Part shown: positions 14,235 through 50,488 of the stretch, one piece after another
Position numbering within the stretch: the stretch's first letter is position 1
Layout of the letters: each line of letters opens with the position of its first letter
Source: TPA_inf: Saccharomyces
Lineage: Eukaryota
Length of the DNA stretch: 64,000 nt
Direction: 5' to 3'
Assembly: GCA_000146045.2 (NCBI GenBank)
Contig: BK006945.2
Span: forward strand, 352,001 to 416,000
Made by a program: the position numbers and the translations under genes
Notes under the pieces: model-generated
What the model was told of the DNA's origin: nothing
Database searches by the model: none
The model's input: the letters and a program-made list of their open reading frames with translations, nothing else

Positions 14235-14346
14235 GTTCGCGAAGTAACCCTTCGTGGACATTTGGTCAATTTGAAACAATACAGAGATGATCAGCAGTTC
14301 CCCTGCATAAGGATGAACCGTTTTACAAAGAGATTTATTTCGTTTT
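14235..14346 (+). ncRNA. SNR6: U6 spliceosomal snRNA gene (112 nt, Pol III)
   Basis: The sequence reads GTTCGCGAAGTAACCCTTCGTGGACATTTGGTCAATTTGAAACAATACAGAGATGATCAGCAGTTCCCCTGCATAAGGATGAACCGTTTTACAAAGAGATTTATTTCGTTTT. This matches yeast U6, including the invariant ACAGAGA and AGC-triad region, and is followed by a T10 tract. Confidence 0.95.
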
Positions 14347-14352
14347 TTTTTT
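14343..14352 (+). terminator. Pol III terminator T-tract (T10) for SNR6
   Basis: Ten consecutive T residues end the U6 sequence. Confidence 0.85.
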
Positions 14353-22354: not shown

Positions 22355-22427
22355 TTCCTCGTGGCCCAATGGTCACGGCGTCTGGCTACGAACCAGAAGA
22401 TTCCAGGTTCAAGTCCTGGCGGGGAAG
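22355..22427 (+). tRNA. tRNA-Arg, anticodon ACG, 73 nt
   Basis: The sequence is TTCCTCGTGGCCCAATGGTCACGGCGTCTGGCTACGAACCAGAAGATTCCAGGTTCAAGTCCTGGCGGGGAAG. It has a 7-bp acceptor stem, an A box TGGCCCAATGG, a B box GGTTCAAGTCC and an anticodon loop CT-ACG-AA. Confidence 0.93.
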
Positions 22428-43757: not shown

Positions 43758-46319
43758 TCATGAGTTTTTATGCCCATTTTTCACTATTTCATATGAACCA
43801 TTGGCAATGTACTTCAGCCTACCCTCATCGGCCAGAGTGTTTAAATATCCCTCTAATTGTTGAAGAGTAATTCGGTTATATCCCCAATCTTTTGGCACGG
43901 TAATTTTCAAAAAAGAATGGATCTTATGAAGTTTCATTGCGCCTAAATTAGTCAGCATTCCTTCGATGAATGGCAGACTTCTTTGAAGTGTCAATTCATA
44001 TTTTCTTTCTATCTCAGAATCGTTATGTAGTTCATAGTTACTGTTCTCAATCTCCATTGGGGCGGTCTTTTGTGCTTGATCAAAATCCATCTCGCTATGT
44101 TCAATAACGGAATAGGTTCCATTTTCTTTTAAAAGCACACCTTTTTGAATCCAGAAATCTAACAAATGAGTTAGCCTGGGAGGAGCAATATTTAGTGACT
44201 CAGAAAGCTGCTCTAGTGATAAACAAATTGGCTCATCATTTGGAGAATCAAACTGATTTATTACGCTGCATTGTTCTAAAGAAACGTCTAACACTAATTT
44301 CCTACCATCTTTGAAAGCTAATTGTATTTCTACTTTTCCTTTATCTTTGCATAGTTGTAACTTGCGCCCAGGTTTCAGCTGTGAGTATATATCAGAATAC
44401 TTCTGTAGCTCCCTTTCTAAATCTATTGGTAAATGAAATGCAAGATCATTAGAACCTTGTGTATCGCAGTTGTACTTCCAGTAGAGGAGTGAGATAAATT
44501 TTGGAAATATTATGGGATCCAGTCCGGCTACTTCATGCATTTTACGGCAGAGCTCCTCGCTACATTTTATATCCCAAAGCATAACATCAATGCTATTCAA
44601 ATTCGACTGGTCTGCATCTGCTGCAGGGGCTGTTGTTTCTAGGAGTCCTAATATACCGTTTGTTATATAATTGGAATGACTTGTTTCTGTGAATTTGACT
44701 ATTTTTTCTCTTATTAATTTCAAACATCGGGTCCATTTTTCATCCAACGTATAAAATTTCAAAGTGAATAATCTGTCGGTTAAGAGATTTCGAAATTCTG
44801 ATATGAAAAATTCTCTTGATTCAAATAGATCCAAAAGCACCTCAAACAAATTTGTCTTAATATAACTTGATTTGATGTTACCGGGAATCATGTCATTAGG
44901 CTCTGGTACCCAAGCTATATAATAATTGAGTATATGTTCGTATAGCATGGCGTGTCTTATTGGTAGGTCCTTGTTCAATTCCCTCTTTCCTTTCACCTTG
45001 AGGTTCCATAGAAAGGGGCTTTTTTTATTCTTGTCCCTTTTGGTGATGTTCGTATCTTGATTGATATCAGAATCGTGCAAAGTGTCTACAAGTGAGAGCA
45101 GTGCCTTCATATCTACATTGAAATTAATTTTCTCCTTTAGTTCTTCTTCAGGTAAGTCCAACATTGCGTATAACAATACATTTACTAAGTGCTTCCGCTC
45201 CTGAAAGTAAGGTTTAACAAACGTGGTTATTGAATGTAGGCATCTCCCTGTTGGATCCAGGACCAAAAATGCTTTGATAGTTTTAACATATCTCAACAAA
45301 GCGTCCACCGTAGTTACGCTGGGGTTTAGAATGTATTTCTTGAAATCAGACAAAAAAGTTGTTACAATATTTGTGTAGTCTTTAAAATCTTTCATAATTT
45401 TCCTCAATTCCAATAAAGTAACCTTTGAATCAGGATAAGCCAAAACGCATATATCAAAGATTTCATTCGTTCTTATCCTAAGAAAATTGGACTCAAAACA
45501 GTTGAAAACTGTAGTGGTCAGTTCGTGATCATCCTCTGGACAACCGACTAATTTAGAGAACTGAGACCAATATTGATTAATAAATTTGTTGAATGTTTCC
45601 ATAATCATAAACCTTTTATTCCATACTCTACTCATGTTATCTTCACAAAATTTATTGATTTTGCTGTAAAGAGCATTGACTATCAATTCCGTAGAGGATA
45701 AGGAACCATTAGCAGATTTGAGCCATTGGATTAAATTGTCTGCCAGGTCGAAATCATCATCCATTATTAATTTGTCTAATCTTGTTCTTAAATTATTTTT
45801 GAACTTTATATTTCTATTCAACAGATAATGTCTTAAAGAATTAAGTTCAAGTGCCCAGTCGTTTACATTTACGTCAAAAATAGGAACGTAACGTAAAGGA
45901 AACTCGTAATAATTTTCCCATCGTTGGATATCTTTTAGATAATTAATGTTGTTAAAATGTAAGAAAAAATGATAACGAACCTGGAAAATATAAAACTCTT
46001 TGAGCGTGGAAAAAAGTTGTAGTTGTAACTCTTTGTTTGTATTTCCCTCATTAACTATTGAATTGTTTGCCTGACTAGTGTTTATCATGCTATATGGCGA
46101 TGTGGTTGCGTTATTAGGGAAGAGAACCTTAATGATATTCTTAATACGAAGGCTTGGAGGACGTAGTTGATGGTTACTCTTGGCATCATTAGGGCTCATC
46201 CATGTAAGTAAAGAGTTCAAATCATCGACTATGTTTGTGTGAAAGATGTATGAGGAAAGTGTTTGTAACTCATCTGTAATAACTTTCAAATCTCGAGTTG
46301 GGGTAATCTGAAATGACAT
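43758..46319 (-). CDS. APC2: Anaphase-promoting complex subunit 2, cullin-homology subunit (YLR127C), 853 aa
   Basis: ATG verified ([19 protein letters not shown]...). The C-terminal region has cullin homology and a winged helix. Length matches Apc2. Confidence 0.85.
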
Positions 46320-46529
46320 GATGGAAAAACCTTAACTATAAGCCATAAATATTTACAGTCCCGCTAAGTCTGGCTTTCGTCTAGTTTTCGATATTTTGGC
46401 TCTTTTGTCTATTACTGTTTTTGTAACCAAAGGTTTGAAAATTTAGATGCAACTAATGAACTTACGCAGTAACATGCAAGTACCCAATAAAAAAAGAAAT
46501 TTTTGAAGAGACGTTCTTGCATTCAGGAC

Positions 46530-47433
46530 ATGGTATGTTTTTAATTTCGTTTCTTTAGTTCTCAGGCTCTTCAAAGTACTAACACTTTATTGGCAAGGGG
46601 CGCTCAAATGTGATGCATCATTATAGAGTAATAATAAAATAAAAAGAAAGGATGCAAGCCCGGAACAAGAGGCAATTGAATCATTCACCTCATTAACCAA
46701 ATGTGACCCCAAGGTATCCAGGAAGTACCTGCAGCGTAATCACTGGAACATCAATTACGCTCTCAATGATTATTATGACAAGGAAATAGGGACGTTTACT
46801 GACGAGGTTTCAACTGTGGCTCATCCACCCGTATACCCGAAGGAGCTAACACAGGTATTTGAACACTATATCAATAACAACTTGTTTGATATAGACTCAC
46901 TGGTCAAGTTCATTGAGGAGCTAGGCTACAATCTTGAAGATTTAGCGACATTATGCTTAGCCCATTTACTGGGGTACAAGAAACTAGAAGAACCCTTAAA
47001 ACGAGAGGACTTCCTGTCAACATGGTTTATGCAAGGCTGTTCCACCATTTCAGACATGCAAGAGTGCATCAAGACGTTAGATGTTAAATTACATGAAGAC
47101 TTACAATATTTCACACAGATTTATAACTATGCTTTCAATTTGATTCTGGACCCAAATCGAAAGGATATAGATACAGACGAAGGCATCCAGTATTGGAAGC
47201 TATTTTTCCAACCAGAGTACCCAGTGCGTATGGAACCAGATTTGCTTGAGGCATGGTTCCGTTTCCTTCGCGATGAGGGGAAAACCACTATAAGTAAAGA
47301 CACCTGGCGTATGCTGCTCCTCTTTTTCAAACGATACCCCACTATTCAGAAAATAATAAGCGATTACGACGAAACTGCAGCCTGGCCATTTATTATCGAT
47401 GAGTTCTATGAGTGCTTACAGGATCAGCAATAA
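46530..47433 (+). CDS. DCN1: Cullin neddylation scaffold Dcn1 (YLR128W), 269 aa, spliced: join(46530..46532, 46627..47433)
   Basis: Exon 1 is the ATG alone, followed at once by GTATGT (46533). The branchpoint TACTAAC is at 46577-46583 and the 3' splice site is the AG at 46625-46626. Exon 2 then continues in frame as SNNKIKRKDASPEQEAIESF...NDYYDKE (UBA domain) followed by the PONY domain. The spliced product is exactly 269 aa. The ORF track shows only 205 aa from an internal GTG. Confidence 0.85.
46533..46626 (+). other. DCN1 intron (94 nt) with canonical GTATGT, TACTAAC and AG signals
   Basis: The splice signals are exact yeast consensus, and an in-frame stop at 46624-46626 shows the coding frame cannot extend further upstream unspliced. 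An alternative AG at 46596-46597 lies 14 nt past the branch A. Confidence 0.8.
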
Positions 47434-47656: not shown

Positions 47657-50488
47657 ATGGTCAAATCATACCAACGTTTTGAGCAAGCAGCTGCTTTTGG
47701 TGTAATAGCCTCCAATGCCAATTGTGTTTGGATACCTGCGTCATCCGGAAATAGTAATGGTAGTGGACCAGGACAATTGATTACGAGTGCTCTCGAGGAC
47801 GTTAATATATGGGATATTAAGACCGGGGATTTGGTCAGTAAATTATCCGATGGCTTACCTCCAGGCGCATCTGATGCTAGAGGCGCCAAGCCAGCCGAGT
47901 GTACATATTTGGAGGCTCATAAAGATACGGATTTATTAGCTGTCGGTTACGCAGATGGTGTCATTAAAGTTTGGGATTTGATGTCTAAGACTGTGCTTTT
48001 GAATTTTAACGGTCACAAAGCAGCTATAACATTATTACAATTTGATGGGACTGGCACAAGATTAATTTCTGGTTCCAAGGACTCCAATATCATTGTATGG
48101 GATCTTGTTGGAGAAGTTGGTCTTTATAAACTTAGATCACACAAGGATTCCATTACTGGCTTTTGGTGTCAAGGAGAAGATTGGCTGATCAGCACCTCCA
48201 AAGATGGAATGATCAAGCTATGGGACCTAAAAACACATCAATGTATAGAGACACATATTGCGCATACTGGAGAGTGTTGGGGCCTTGCAGTGAAGGATGA
48301 TTTACTGATCACAACTGGTACTGATAGTCAAGTAAAAATTTGGAAACTGGATATAGAAAATGACAAAATGGGGGGGAAACTAACAGAGATGGGTATTTTC
48401 GAAAAGCAAAGTAAGCAACGTGGGTTAAAGATTGAGTTCATAACAAATTCGTCTGACAAAACCTCTTTTTTTTACATCCAAAATGCTGATAAAACCATCG
48501 AGACTTTCAGAATTAGAAAAGAAGAAGAAATAGCAAGAGGTTTAAAGAAAAGAGAGAAGAGGCTAAAAGAAAAGGGGTTGACAGAAGAAGAAATTGCAAA
48601 ATCTATTAAAGAATCCTACTCCTCCTTTATATTGCATCCTTTTCAAACCATAAGATCATTGTATAAAATAAAATCTGCATCATGGACAACGGTCTCAAGT
48701 TCCAAACTTGAGTTGGTATTAACTACATCGAGTAATACCATAGAGTATTATTCCATTCCATATGAAAAAAGAGACCCAACAAGCCCTGCTCCTCTCAAGA
48801 CACATACTATTGAATTGCAAGGGCAAAGAACGGATGTGCGTAGTATTGACATCAGTGATGATAACAAATTACTTGCCACAGCATCCAATGGTTCATTGAA
48901 AATATGGAATATCAAAACACATAAATGTATCAGAACTTTCGAATGTGGGTATGCATTAACTTGTAAGTTTTTGCCAGGTGGGCTACTAGTCATACTGGGT
49001 ACAAGAAACGGGGAGTTACAGCTCTTTGATCTAGCATCATCAAGTCTTTTGGATACCATTGAAGATGCACATGATGCGGCAATTTGGTCGCTAGATCTGA
49101 CCTCAGATGGTAAACGATTAGTGACCGGATCTGCCGATAAAACTGTCAAGTTTTGGGATTTCAAAGTTGAAAATAGCCTAGTGCCAGGTACCAAGAACAA
49201 ATTCCTGCCTGTTTTAAAACTGCACCATGATACAACTTTGGAATTAACTGACGACATTTTATGTGTACGGGTTTCTCCTGACGATAGATATCTAGCCATC
49301 TCGTTGCTGGATAATACTGTTAAGGTATTCTTTTTGGACTCAATGAAGTTTTACCTAAGTTTATATGGGCACAAATTACCTGTACTATCTATCGATATTT
49401 CATTTGATTCTAAGATGATTATTACGTCTTCCGCAGACAAAAATATCAAGATTTGGGGTTTAGATTTTGGTGACTGTCACAAGTCTTTATTTGCCCATCA
49501 GGATTCGATTATGAACGTTAAATTCTTACCACAGTCTCACAACTTCTTTAGTTGTTCTAAAGACGCAGTGGTGAAATATTGGGATGGCGAGAAATTTGAA
49601 TGCATTCAAAAACTATACGCTCATCAGAGCGAAGTTTGGGCTTTGGCGGTTGCTACTGATGGCGGCTTTGTTGTTTCTTCATCCCATGATCACAGTATAA
49701 GAATCTGGGAAGAAACCGAGGACCAGGTATTTTTAGAAGAGGAAAAGGAGAAAGAACTTGAAGAACAGTACGAGGATACATTGCTAACTTCTTTGGAAGA
49801 AGGAAACGGTGATGATGCATTTAAAGCTGATGCATCGGGTGAAGGCGTTGAAGATGAAGCATCCGGTGTTCATAAACAGACTTTAGAATCGTTAAAGGCT
49901 GGTGAAAGACTTATGGAGGCGCTAGATTTAGGAATTGCTGAGATTGAAGGTTTAGAGGCATATAACAGAGATATGAAGCTATGGCAAAGAAAGAAGTTGG
50001 GTGAAGCGCCAATAAAACCACAGGGTAACGCTGTTCTAATTGCTGTGAATAAAACTCCTGAGCAATATATTATGGATACCCTGTTAAGAATAAGAATGTC
50101 TCAGTTAGAAGATGCACTGATGGTTATGCCATTCTCATATGTCCTCAAATTTTTAAAATTTATTGATACCGTTATGCAAAACAAAACTTTGCTGCACTCT
50201 CACTTACCATTAATTTGCAAGAATTTATTTTTCATTATCAAATTTAATCATAAAGAATTGGTTTCTCAGAAAAATGAAGAATTGAAATTGCAAATAAATA
50301 GAGTAAAGACTGAATTAAGAAGTGCATTAAAATCTACCGAGGATGATCTAGGCTTTAATGTTCAAGGGTTGAAATTCGTCAAGCAACAATGGAATCTAAG
50401 GCATAACTACGAATTCGTTGACGAATATGACCAACAGGAGAAAGAGAGTAATAGTGCAAGGAAGAGAGTTTTCGGGACCGTTATATAA
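47657..50488 (+). CDS. DIP2: U3 snoRNP / SSU processome WD40 protein Dip2/Utp12 (YLR129W), 943 aa
   Basis: ATG at 47657. Multiple WD40 repeats are present (e.g. LISGSKDSNIIVWDL, LVTGSADKTVKFWD), and the C-terminal region is of Utp12 type. Length is 943 aa. Confidence 0.88.
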   Translation: MVKSYQRFEQAAAFGVIASNANCVWIPASSGNSNGSGPGQLITSALEDVNIWDIKTGDLVSKLSDGLPPGASDARGAKPAECTYLEAHKDTDLLAVGYADGVIKVWDLMSKTVLLNFNGHKAAITLLQFDGTGTRLISGSKDSNIIVWDLVGEVGLYKLRSHKDSITGFWCQGEDWLISTSKDGMIKLWDLKTHQCIETHIAHTGECWGLAVKDDLLITTGTDSQVKIWKLDIENDKMGGKLTEMGIFEKQSKQRGLKIEFITNSSDKTSFFYIQNADKTIETFRIRKEEEIARGLKKREKRLKEKGLTEEEIAKSIKESYSSFILHPFQTIRSLYKIKSASWTTVSSSKLELVLTTSSNTIEYYSIPYEKRDPTSPAPLKTHTIELQGQRTDVRSIDISDDNKLLATASNGSLKIWNIKTHKCIRTFECGYALTCKFLPGGLLVILGTRNGELQLFDLASSSLLDTIEDAHDAAIWSLDLTSDGKRLVTGSADKTVKFWDFKVENSLVPGTKNKFLPVLKLHHDTTLELTDDILCVRVSPDDRYLAISLLDNTVKVFFLDSMKFYLSLYGHKLPVLSIDISFDSKMIITSSADKNIKIWGLDFGDCHKSLFAHQDSIMNVKFLPQSHNFFSCSKDAVVKYWDGEKFECIQKLYAHQSEVWALAVATDGGFVVSSSHDHSIRIWEETEDQVFLEEEKEKELEEQYEDTLLTSLEEGNGDDAFKADASGEGVEDEASGVHKQTLESLKAGERLMEALDLGIAEIEGLEAYNRDMKLWQRKKLGEAPIKPQGNAVLIAVNKTPEQYIMDTLLRIRMSQLEDALMVMPFSYVLKFLKFIDTVMQNKTLLHSHLPLICKNLFFIIKFNHKELVSQKNEELKLQINRVKTELRSALKSTEDDLGFNVQGLKFVKQQWNLRHNYEFVDEYDQQEKESNSARKRVFGTVI

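What the first reader, a model, noticed from the sequence alone, without database searches (positions are those of the whole stretch)
46530..46626. DCN1 has a one-codon first exon (ATG then GTATGT), which hides the N-terminal UBA domain from ORF-based annotation
The ORF track gives a 205-aa product starting at an internal GTG. The frame continues upstream through a UBA-like sequence (EQEAIESFTSL...NDYYDKE) to an in-frame stop at 46624-46626 that coincides with a TAG 3' splice site. Upstream, ATG is directly followed by GTATGT with TACTAAC in between. Splicing yields an exact 269-aa protein. An alternative AG at 46596-46597 lies 14 nt past the branch A, but using it would put the ATG out of frame.
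Basis: partly seen in the sequence, partly recalled or inferred. Interest (0 to 1): 0.5.

Follow-up and report, generated by a model that had tools for sequence, protein, structure and literature searches.

The report
Known yeast DCN1 intron after ATG

Summary
ATG (46530-46532) is followed directly by GTATGT. TACTAAC lies at 46577-46583. An out-of-frame AAG lies at 46595-46597. A TAG at 46624-46626 is both the in-frame stop and a 3' splice site. Removing 46533-46626 (94 nt) gives an 810-nt reading frame of 269 aa.

That protein matches PDB 3bq3_A (full-length yeast Dcn1) at all 269 residues. The same sequence is filed in public databases as "NEDD8 ligase DCN1 [Saccharomyces cerevisiae S288C]". 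It has a UBA-like domain at residues 12-56 and a cullin-binding (PONY) domain at 145-263.

A 2011 paper lists DCN1 among yeast genes whose first coding exon is just AUG. A 2014 RNA-seq study lists YLR128W with GTATGT/TAG splice sites and no alternative junctions, even in NMD mutants. Five Saccharomyces-clade genomes and Kazachstania unispora keep the ATG|GTATGT layout. An intron-less S. eubayanus contig, most simply a transcript, shows the ATG|AGT junction.

Exon 1 probably also carries a 5' UTR, so only its coding part would be one codon.

Verdict: correct, ordinary and already known.

The parts
46423..46529 (+). Probable 5' UTR part of exon 1. The 5' limit is inferred and not measured in S. 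cerevisiae.
   Evidence: The intron-less S. eubayanus contig L003 carries 108 nt upstream of the ATG, collinear with its genome. Its first base aligns to about window 46423.
46530..46532 (+). DCN1 start codon, the whole coding part of exon 1
   Evidence: PMC3226532 Table 2 lists DCN1 with a first exon of 3 nt, AUG.
46533..46626 (+). Spliceosomal intron, 94 nt, phase 0 after codon 1
   Evidence: Removing it gives a 269-aa protein identical to PDB 3bq3_A. The homologous 93-nt segment is absent from S. eubayanus contig L003.
46533..46538 (+). 5' splice site GTATGT (yeast consensus)
   Evidence: Unchanged in 10 S. cerevisiae strains and in 5 other species. Listed as GTATGT in PMC3983031 Table S4.
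46577..46583 (+). Branch-point box TACTAAC, branch A at 46582
   Evidence: It is TACTAAC or CACTAAC in all the Saccharomyces-clade orthologues.
46595..46597 (+). Branch-proximal AAG, a skipped and non-productive candidate acceptor
   Evidence: Using it gives M+14 aa and then a stop. No alternative junctions for YLR128W were found in wild-type or upf1/2/3 deletion RNA-seq. The homologous AAG is bypassed in the S. eubayanus contig.
46624..46626 (+). 3' splice site TAG, which is also the in-frame stop that closes the upstream frame
   Evidence: Listed as TAG in PMC3983031 Table S4. It is TAG or CAG at the same place in the orthologues.
46627..47433 (+). DCN1 exon 2 coding sequence: codons 2-269 plus the TAA stop
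46657..46791 (+). Coding region of the UBA-like domain (residues 12-56)
   Evidence: Pfam UBA_8 at residues 12-56, E = 4e-18. UBA_4 at residues 15-53, E = 1.1e-12. PDB 2l4e covers residues 5-62.
47056..47412 (+). Coding region of the Cullin_binding / PONY domain (residues 145-263), including the DAD patch D226, A253, D259
   Evidence: Pfam PF03556, E = 9.7e-31. The three DAD residues are present; they are named in PMC4886823.

Best explanation
This is the standard gene model of Saccharomyces cerevisiae DCN1 (YLR128W). The gene lies between APC2 (minus strand) and DIP2 (plus strand).

Exon 1 probably consists of a 5' UTR plus the start codon. A canonical 94-nt spliceosomal intron follows at once, with GUAUGU, then UACUAAC, then UAG 44 nt past the branch A. 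Splicing joins AUG in frame to AGU (Ser2). The mRNA then encodes the 269-aa Dcn1 protein.

Dcn1 has a short basic tail, a UBA-like domain (about residues 12-56) and a C-terminal PONY/cullin-binding domain. It is the scaffold-type co-E3 that helps Ubc12 transfer Rub1/NEDD8 to cullins.

Unspliced RNA would be translated from the same AUG into MVCF and then stop. The branch-proximal AAG would give a 15-codon frame. So only the UAG junction makes the protein. The weak AAG acceptor is passed over in favour of the UAG; the yeast preference for YAG acceptors is established knowledge and was not tested here.

Shown here: the sequence signals, the exact identity of the product, conservation of the intron, and a spliced orthologous contig. 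Taken from the literature: the 3-nt coding exon, the absence of alternative junctions, and the protein's function. Inferred: the position of the S. cerevisiae 5' end, and the reason the AAG is skipped.
For: - Signals and frame arithmetic.
- GTATGT-N(25-55)-TACTAAC is found once in the window, against 0.05 expected.
- The spliced product matches PDB 3bq3_A over residues 1-269. It also matches 2is9, 3o2p and 2l4e, all named Defective in cullin neddylation protein 1.
- The exact sequence is in NCBI and UniRef as 'NEDD8 ligase DCN1 [Saccharomyces cerevisiae S288C]'.
- Pfam hits pass their curated cut-offs: UBA_8, UBA_4 and Cullin_binding. The DAD patch D226/A253/D259 is present.
- PMC3226532 Table 2 lists DCN1 with a first coding exon of 3 nt, AUG.
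- PMC3983031 Table S4 lists YLR128W with GTATGT/TAG and no alternative junctions in wild type or upf1, upf2 and upf3 deletion strains.
- The locus is identical or nearly identical to 10 S. cerevisiae strain genomes (0-7 differences over 3904 nt). All splice signals are unchanged in them.
- APC2-DCN1-DIP2 gene order and the ATG|GTATGT...YAG|AGT layout are kept in S. kudriavzevii and S. eubayanus. ATG|GTATGT...TAG (with exon 2 starting TCA) is kept in Kazachstania unispora with the same gene order. The same intron layout is found upstream of the truncated gene calls in two further Saccharomyces-clade genomes.
- S. eubayanus contig L003 lacks exactly the 93-nt intron and reads ...GGGATATG|AGTAGC....
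Against: I could not retrieve S. cerevisiae junction-spanning reads or a cDNA directly. The accepted look-up returned only genomic contigs. A metagenome scan for the junction 24-mer found nothing.

The library type of the run behind L003 is not known to me, so calling it a transcript is an inference from the missing intron and the mRNA-like length.

Table S4 of PMC3983031 reports the annotated splice sites and the lack of alternatives. It does not give junction read counts.
Confidence: 0.97

Rival explanations
1. There is no splicing. The protein starts inside exon 2, either at the first in-frame ATG (Met136, 134 aa) or at the GTG reported by the ORF tool (205 aa). It would then lack the UBA-like domain.
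For: the ORF listing reports the 205-aa GTG ORF. Some public strain annotations do file Dcn1 as 134 aa (RM11-1a) or 125 aa (VL3, Vin13), and as 183 aa in metagenome gene calls.
Against: The frame upstream of Met136 encodes a UBA-like domain with strong Pfam scores. That domain is conserved in every orthologue aligned. The solved full-length yeast structure and the NMR structure of the UBA domain contain these residues. The intron signals are conserved, and a spliced orthologous contig exists. GTG starts are a bacterial-code artefact of the ORF tool.
Confidence: 0.01
2. The gene starts at the upstream ATG 46447. An 11-codon first exon (MQLMNLRSNMQ) is spliced from GTACCC at 46480 to the same TAG acceptor, giving 279 aa. 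A few automated S. cerevisiae annotations use this model.
For: P0018 (279 aa; 6 contigs, named only 'unnamed protein product' or 'hypothetical protein') has exactly this N-terminus. The arithmetic is in frame.
Against: GTACCC departs from the yeast 5' splice-site consensus at positions 4-6. A perfect GTATGT lies 53 nt downstream, right after an ATG. ATG 46447 is not kept in any of the four other Saccharomyces-clade genomes aligned. The homologous stretch stays in the S. eubayanus contig, contiguous with the real ATG. The experimentally used protein is 269 aa.
Confidence: 0.01
3. The branch-proximal AAG (46595-46597) is used in a meaningful share of transcripts. This would be a non-productive alternative 3' splice site that lowers Dcn1 output through nonsense-mediated decay.
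For: The AAG lies 15 nt past the branch A, which is probably a usable distance. It is kept in all five Saccharomyces-clade genomes. YLR128W RPKM rises slightly in upf mutants, from 21.5 to about 28-30.
Against: PMC3983031 places YLR128W in the list of intron genes with no alternative junction in any strain, NMD mutants included. The branch-to-acceptor segment is no more conserved (37% invariant columns) than the intergenic region (39%). There is no significant or conserved RNA structure around it. AAG is a weak acceptor in yeast (established knowledge). The small RPKM rise could equally come from unspliced RNA, which stops after MVCF.
Confidence: 0.05

Closest known systems
S. cerevisiae DCN1 / YLR128W (Dcn1p; PDB 3bq3, 2is9, 3o2p, 2l4e)
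   Same: It is the same gene. The spliced product matches at 269 of 269 residues. The exact sequence is named NEDD8 ligase DCN1 of S288C. It has the same neighbours, APC2 and DIP2, and the same published splice sites.
   Different: Nothing differs.
Yeast genes whose first coding exon is AUG or shorter (PMC3226532 Table 2: RPL30, RPS17A/B, RPS24A/B, UBC12, VMA10, QCR9, MND1, BET4, BOS1, MPT5, YSF3 and others)
   Same: The start codon is followed directly by a consensus-type 5' splice site, so plain ORF finding loses the N-terminus. DCN1 is itself on that list.
   Different: Most members are ribosomal protein genes with introns of several hundred nt (my own knowledge, not tested here). DCN1 is a low-expression, non-ribosomal gene with a short 94-nt intron.
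Human DCUN1D1/DCNL1 and DCUN1D2/DCNL2
   Same: They have the same two-domain layout: an N-terminal UBA domain and a C-terminal PONY domain (PMC4886823). Sequence similarity to PDB DCN1-like protein 1 chains reaches E = 1.9e-22 and spans residues 11-266.
   Different: They are distant in sequence. I did not examine their gene structures, so I cannot say whether the intron position is shared.
Kazachstania africana DCN1 (KAFR_0H02270)
   Same: It is the orthologue at the same position between APC2 and DIP2 homologues. It has the UBA-like and Cullin_binding domains.
   Different: It is one uninterrupted 807-nt ORF with no intron. The intron is therefore dispensable and has been lost, or was never gained, in that lineage.

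Membership tests
Canonical S. cerevisiae spliceosomal intron | 5' splice site matching GUAUGU | tested here: met
   GTATGT at 46533-46538. Unchanged in 10 strains and 5 other species.
Canonical S. cerevisiae spliceosomal intron | Branch-point box UACUAAC upstream of the acceptor | tested here: met
   TACTAAC at 46577-46583. The GTATGT...TACTAAC combination is found once in the window, against 0.05 expected.
Canonical S. cerevisiae spliceosomal intron | YAG acceptor at a usual distance from the branch point, with removal restoring a long reading frame | tested here: met
   TAG at 46624-46626, 44 nt from the branch A. Removing the 94 nt gives an open 269-codon frame.
Canonical S. cerevisiae spliceosomal intron | Spliced RNA observed with exactly this junction | tested here: inconclusive
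   I retrieved no S. cerevisiae junction read. The evidence is indirect. The orthologous S. eubayanus contig L003 lacks the intron at the homologous ATG|AGT junction. Published tables give these splice sites. The recombinant protein used for 3bq3 has the spliced sequence.
DCN1 / DCUN1 family (co-E3 for cullin neddylation) | C-terminal PONY / Cullin_binding domain (PF03556) | tested here: met
   107.1 bits against a cut-off of 27.9, residues 145-263.
DCN1 / DCUN1 family (co-E3 for cullin neddylation) | DAD patch residues D226, A253, D259 that bind cullins | tested here: met
   All three are present at those positions. The residues are named in PMC4886823.
DCN1 / DCUN1 family (co-E3 for cullin neddylation) | N-terminal UBA-like domain (the Dcn1 / DCNL1 / DCNL2 subtype) | tested here: met
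   UBA_8 65.3 bits (cut-off 26) at residues 12-56. UBA_4 48 bits (cut-off 21.8) at residues 15-53. Conserved in the orthologues.
DCN1 / DCUN1 family (co-E3 for cullin neddylation) | Promotes Rub1/NEDD8 transfer from Ubc12 to cullins | not testable with these tools
   Taken from the literature (PMC10216172; PMC4886823). It applies because the sequence is identical to the studied protein.

The most novel reading that the evidence does not exclude
The intron may be more than an inert interruption. Under some conditions the branch-proximal AAG, kept in all five Saccharomyces-clade genomes, could act as a non-productive acceptor, or intron retention (MVCF then stop) could lower output. Either would tune Dcn1 levels. 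This could happen together with UBC12, the gene for Dcn1's E2 partner, which also has an AUG-only first coding exon (PMC3226532 Table 2). That would amount to splicing-level co-regulation of the neddylation pathway.
Probability: 0.04. Interest if true: 0.3.

Novelty: already known. Interest (0 to 1): 0.04.

Why it matters
It matters little for biology. The gene model, the protein, its structure and its function have been in the standard databases and the literature for years.

The practical point concerns annotation. An intron directly after the start codon defeats ORF-based gene calling. Public strain and metagenome annotations do contain truncated Dcn1 entries of 125, 134 and 183 aa, and an invented 279-aa model. 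The first-stage reader recovered the right model from raw sequence alone.

Tried and rejected
- **Look-up of the spliced S. cerevisiae protein for transcript contigs.** It was accepted as P0016, but only genomic contigs with the intron came back.
- **Scan of JGI metagenome contigs for the 24-nt spliced junction TCAGGACATG|AGTAATAATAAAAT.** No matches.
- **RNA structure that might hide the proximal AAG or bring the TAG near the branch point.** Single-sequence folds were no better than shuffles, z = 0.33 and 0.60. The five-species consensus fold had only 3 weak pairs at -0.54 kcal/mol. Rejected.
- **Extra conservation of the branch-to-acceptor segment.** 37% of columns are invariant, against 39% in the intergenic region. 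Rejected.
- **Fyv6 3' splice-site paper supplements.** DCN1/YLR128W is not mentioned in the text held.
- **Davis et al. 2000 and Spingola et al. 1999 intron surveys.** I tried the PMC ids I recalled for them; neither is held in the library.
- **PMC2448332.** It matched YLR128W in the search but not in the main text.
- **Rfam scan of the window.** Nothing in or near the intron.
- **Other GT...TACTAAC combinations that use the same branch box.** The donors at 46204 and 46248 lie inside the APC2 coding region on the opposite strand and follow no usable ATG. Rejected.

Full report
**What is in the sequence.** On the plus strand the window reads ...CATTCAGGAC ATG GTATGT ... TACTAAC ... GGCAAGGGG ... 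CATCATTATAG AGTAAT....

| Element | Coordinates |
|---|---|
| ATG | 46530-46532 |
| GTATGT | 46533-46538 |
| TACTAAC (branch A at 46582) | 46577-46583 |
| AAG | 46595-46597 |
| TAG | 46624-46626 |

The TAG is in frame with the long downstream frame and closes it on the upstream side. The mechanical ORF list uses the bacterial code, so it reports only 46816-47433, 205 aa, starting at GTG. Joining 46530-46532 to 46627-47433 gives 810 nt, which is 269 codons plus TAA.

**Is it more than chance?** GTATGT followed within 25-55 nt by TACTAAC occurs once in the 64 kb on both strands. Dinucleotide-preserving shuffles give 0.05 on average. ATGGTATGT occurs once, and TACTAAC twice.

I tested every AG from the intron to 46658 as an acceptor.
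- The proximal AAG gives a 15-codon frame.
- The GAG at 46627-46628 stops after 1 codon.
- Only the TAG (269 aa) and a distant AAG at 46649-46650 (261 aa, 68 nt from the branch A) keep the frame.

Unspliced RNA translated from the ATG gives MVCF and then a stop.

**What the product is.** The 269-aa protein matches PDB 3bq3_A, "Defective in cullin neddylation protein 1", at every residue from 1 to 269. It also matches 2is9 (residues 66-269), 3o2p/3o6b/3tdi (70-269) and the isolated N-terminal domain 2l4e/2l4f (5-62).

An exact-sequence look-up finds it in NCBI, UniRef and other sources as "NEDD8 ligase DCN1 [Saccharomyces cerevisiae S288C]", on 88 contigs.

Pfam gives these domains:

| Family | Residues | E-value |
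|---|---|---|
| UBA_8 | 12-56 | 4e-18 |
| UBA_4 | 15-53 | 1.1e-12 |
| Cullin_binding | 145-263 | 9.7e-31 |

The cullin-binding DAD patch D226/A253/D259, named in PMC4886823, is present. It begins near residue 12-15, not residue 2. Residues 2-11 (SNNKIKRKDA) are a short basic tail that varies between species.

**Where the window comes from.** The 3.9 kb around the gene is identical to one S. cerevisiae strain assembly. It differs at 2-7 positions from nine others. The neighbours are an APC2 homologue (43758-46319, minus strand, 853 aa) and a DIP2-type WD40 protein (47657-50488, plus strand, 943 aa). The window also holds U6 snRNA and a tRNA-Arg(ACG) gene.

[quoted passage not shown] It includes "DCN1 ... 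3 ... AUG". PMC3983031 (2014), Table S4, lists YLR128W with 5' splice site GTATGT and 3' splice site TAG. That table holds the intron genes for which no alternative junction was found by RNA-seq in wild type or in upf1, upf2 and upf3 deletion strains. RPKM values were 21.5, 30.0, 27.6 and 27.8. Reviews describe Dcn1 (YLR128W) as the co-E3 for Rub1 conjugation to cullins, with an N-terminal UBA domain.

**Comparative and RNA evidence gathered here.** Four orthologous loci keep the APC2-DCN1-DIP2 order.
- S. kudriavzevii has a 96-nt intron.
- S. eubayanus has a 93-nt intron.
- Two further Saccharomyces-clade genomes from a synthetic metagenome have introns of 99 and 91 nt. There the gene caller had reported only 183-aa truncated proteins.
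- All four of these begin ATG|GTATGT, have (T/C)ACTAAC and end in TAG or CAG before AGT.
- Kazachstania unispora also has ATG|GTATGT...TACTAAC...TAG, 115 nt, with exon 2 starting TCA. Splicing reproduces its annotated protein.
- Kazachstania africana has an uninterrupted 807-nt ORF, so the intron is absent there.

A 1032-nt Logan contig from run SRR23107907 (L003) encodes the S. eubayanus protein without interruption. Against the S. eubayanus genome it aligns as two collinear blocks that skip exactly the intron, and it reads GGGATATG|AGTAGC. It also carries 108 nt upstream of the ATG. This is most simply a transcript assembly, although I cannot verify the library type. If so, it shows the homologous junction in use and shows that exon 1 includes a 5' UTR.

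**The skipped AAG.** However, the branch-to-acceptor segment is no more conserved than the intergenic region, 37% against 39% invariant columns. No significant or conserved RNA structure surrounds it. No alternative junction was reported, even without NMD. The homologous AAG is bypassed in the S. eubayanus contig. The simplest account is the known yeast preference for YAG acceptors over AAG. That is established knowledge and was not tested here.

**Rival gene models.** Public annotations contain several.
- 134 aa (RM11-1a, starting at Met136), 125 aa (VL3, Vin13) and 183 aa (metagenome calls). These are what ORF-only calling produces.
- A 279-aa model that starts at ATG 46447 and splices from GTACCC at 46480.

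All are contradicted by the conserved UBA-coding frame and the solved structures. The 279-aa model is further contradicted because ATG 46447 is not conserved, and because the homologous stretch stays in the S. eubayanus contig.

**Verdict.** The feature is the accepted, published DCN1 gene model. Novelty: already known. Interest: very low.

Noticed in passing
window 46447-46506 (+): Three upstream ATGs (46447, 46456, 46474) share one frame that ends at TGA 46504-46506. This would be a 19-codon uORF if the DCN1 5' UTR reaches that far. ATG 46447 is absent from the four other Saccharomyces-clade genomes, and the other two are each kept in only one or two of them. A few automated annotations (P0018, 279 aa) start the gene there and splice from GTACCC at 46480.
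   Followed up: partly
window 46415-46444 (APC2-DCN1 intergenic region): A block (TGTTTTTGTAACC...GAAAATTT) is almost invariant in five Saccharomyces-clade genomes, while the rest of the intergenic region is about 39% invariant. The S. eubayanus intron-less contig L003 starts inside it. It may be a promoter or transcription-start element of the divergent APC2/DCN1 pair.
   Followed up: no
L004:1501-2307 (Kazachstania africana) versus L006:1501-2422 (K. unispora): K. africana DCN1 is an uninterrupted ORF. K. unispora and all the Saccharomyces-clade genomes examined keep the intron right after the ATG. So the intron was lost, or was never present, in one Kazachstania lineage.
   Followed up: partly
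proteins P0020, P0029, P0004, P0005, P0018 (public database entries for this gene): Public records hold truncated Dcn1 entries (125, 134 and 183 aa) and an extended one (279 aa). These are annotation errors caused by the intron after the start codon.
   Followed up: yes
window 46575, 46598, 46603: These are the only intron differences among 10 S. cerevisiae strain genomes: A>G at 46575, G>C at 46598 and C>G at 46603. None touches a splice signal. Position 46598 is the base right after the proximal AAG.
   Followed up: partly
window 14244-14347 (+) and 22355-22427 (+): A U6 spliceosomal snRNA gene (Rfam RF00026, 79.2 bits) and a tRNA-Arg(ACG) gene.
   Followed up: no
window 1 to about 11760 (-): A minus-strand open frame of at least 3919 codons runs off the left end of the window. 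The ORF tool therefore does not list it. It explains the apparent lack of ORFs of 150 aa or more between 5463 and 12116.
   Followed up: partly
PMC3226532 Table 2 (not in the window): UBC12 encodes the NEDD8 E2 whose N-terminus Dcn1 binds. It is also listed with an AUG-only first coding exon. This is a curious parallel within one pathway.
   Followed up: no
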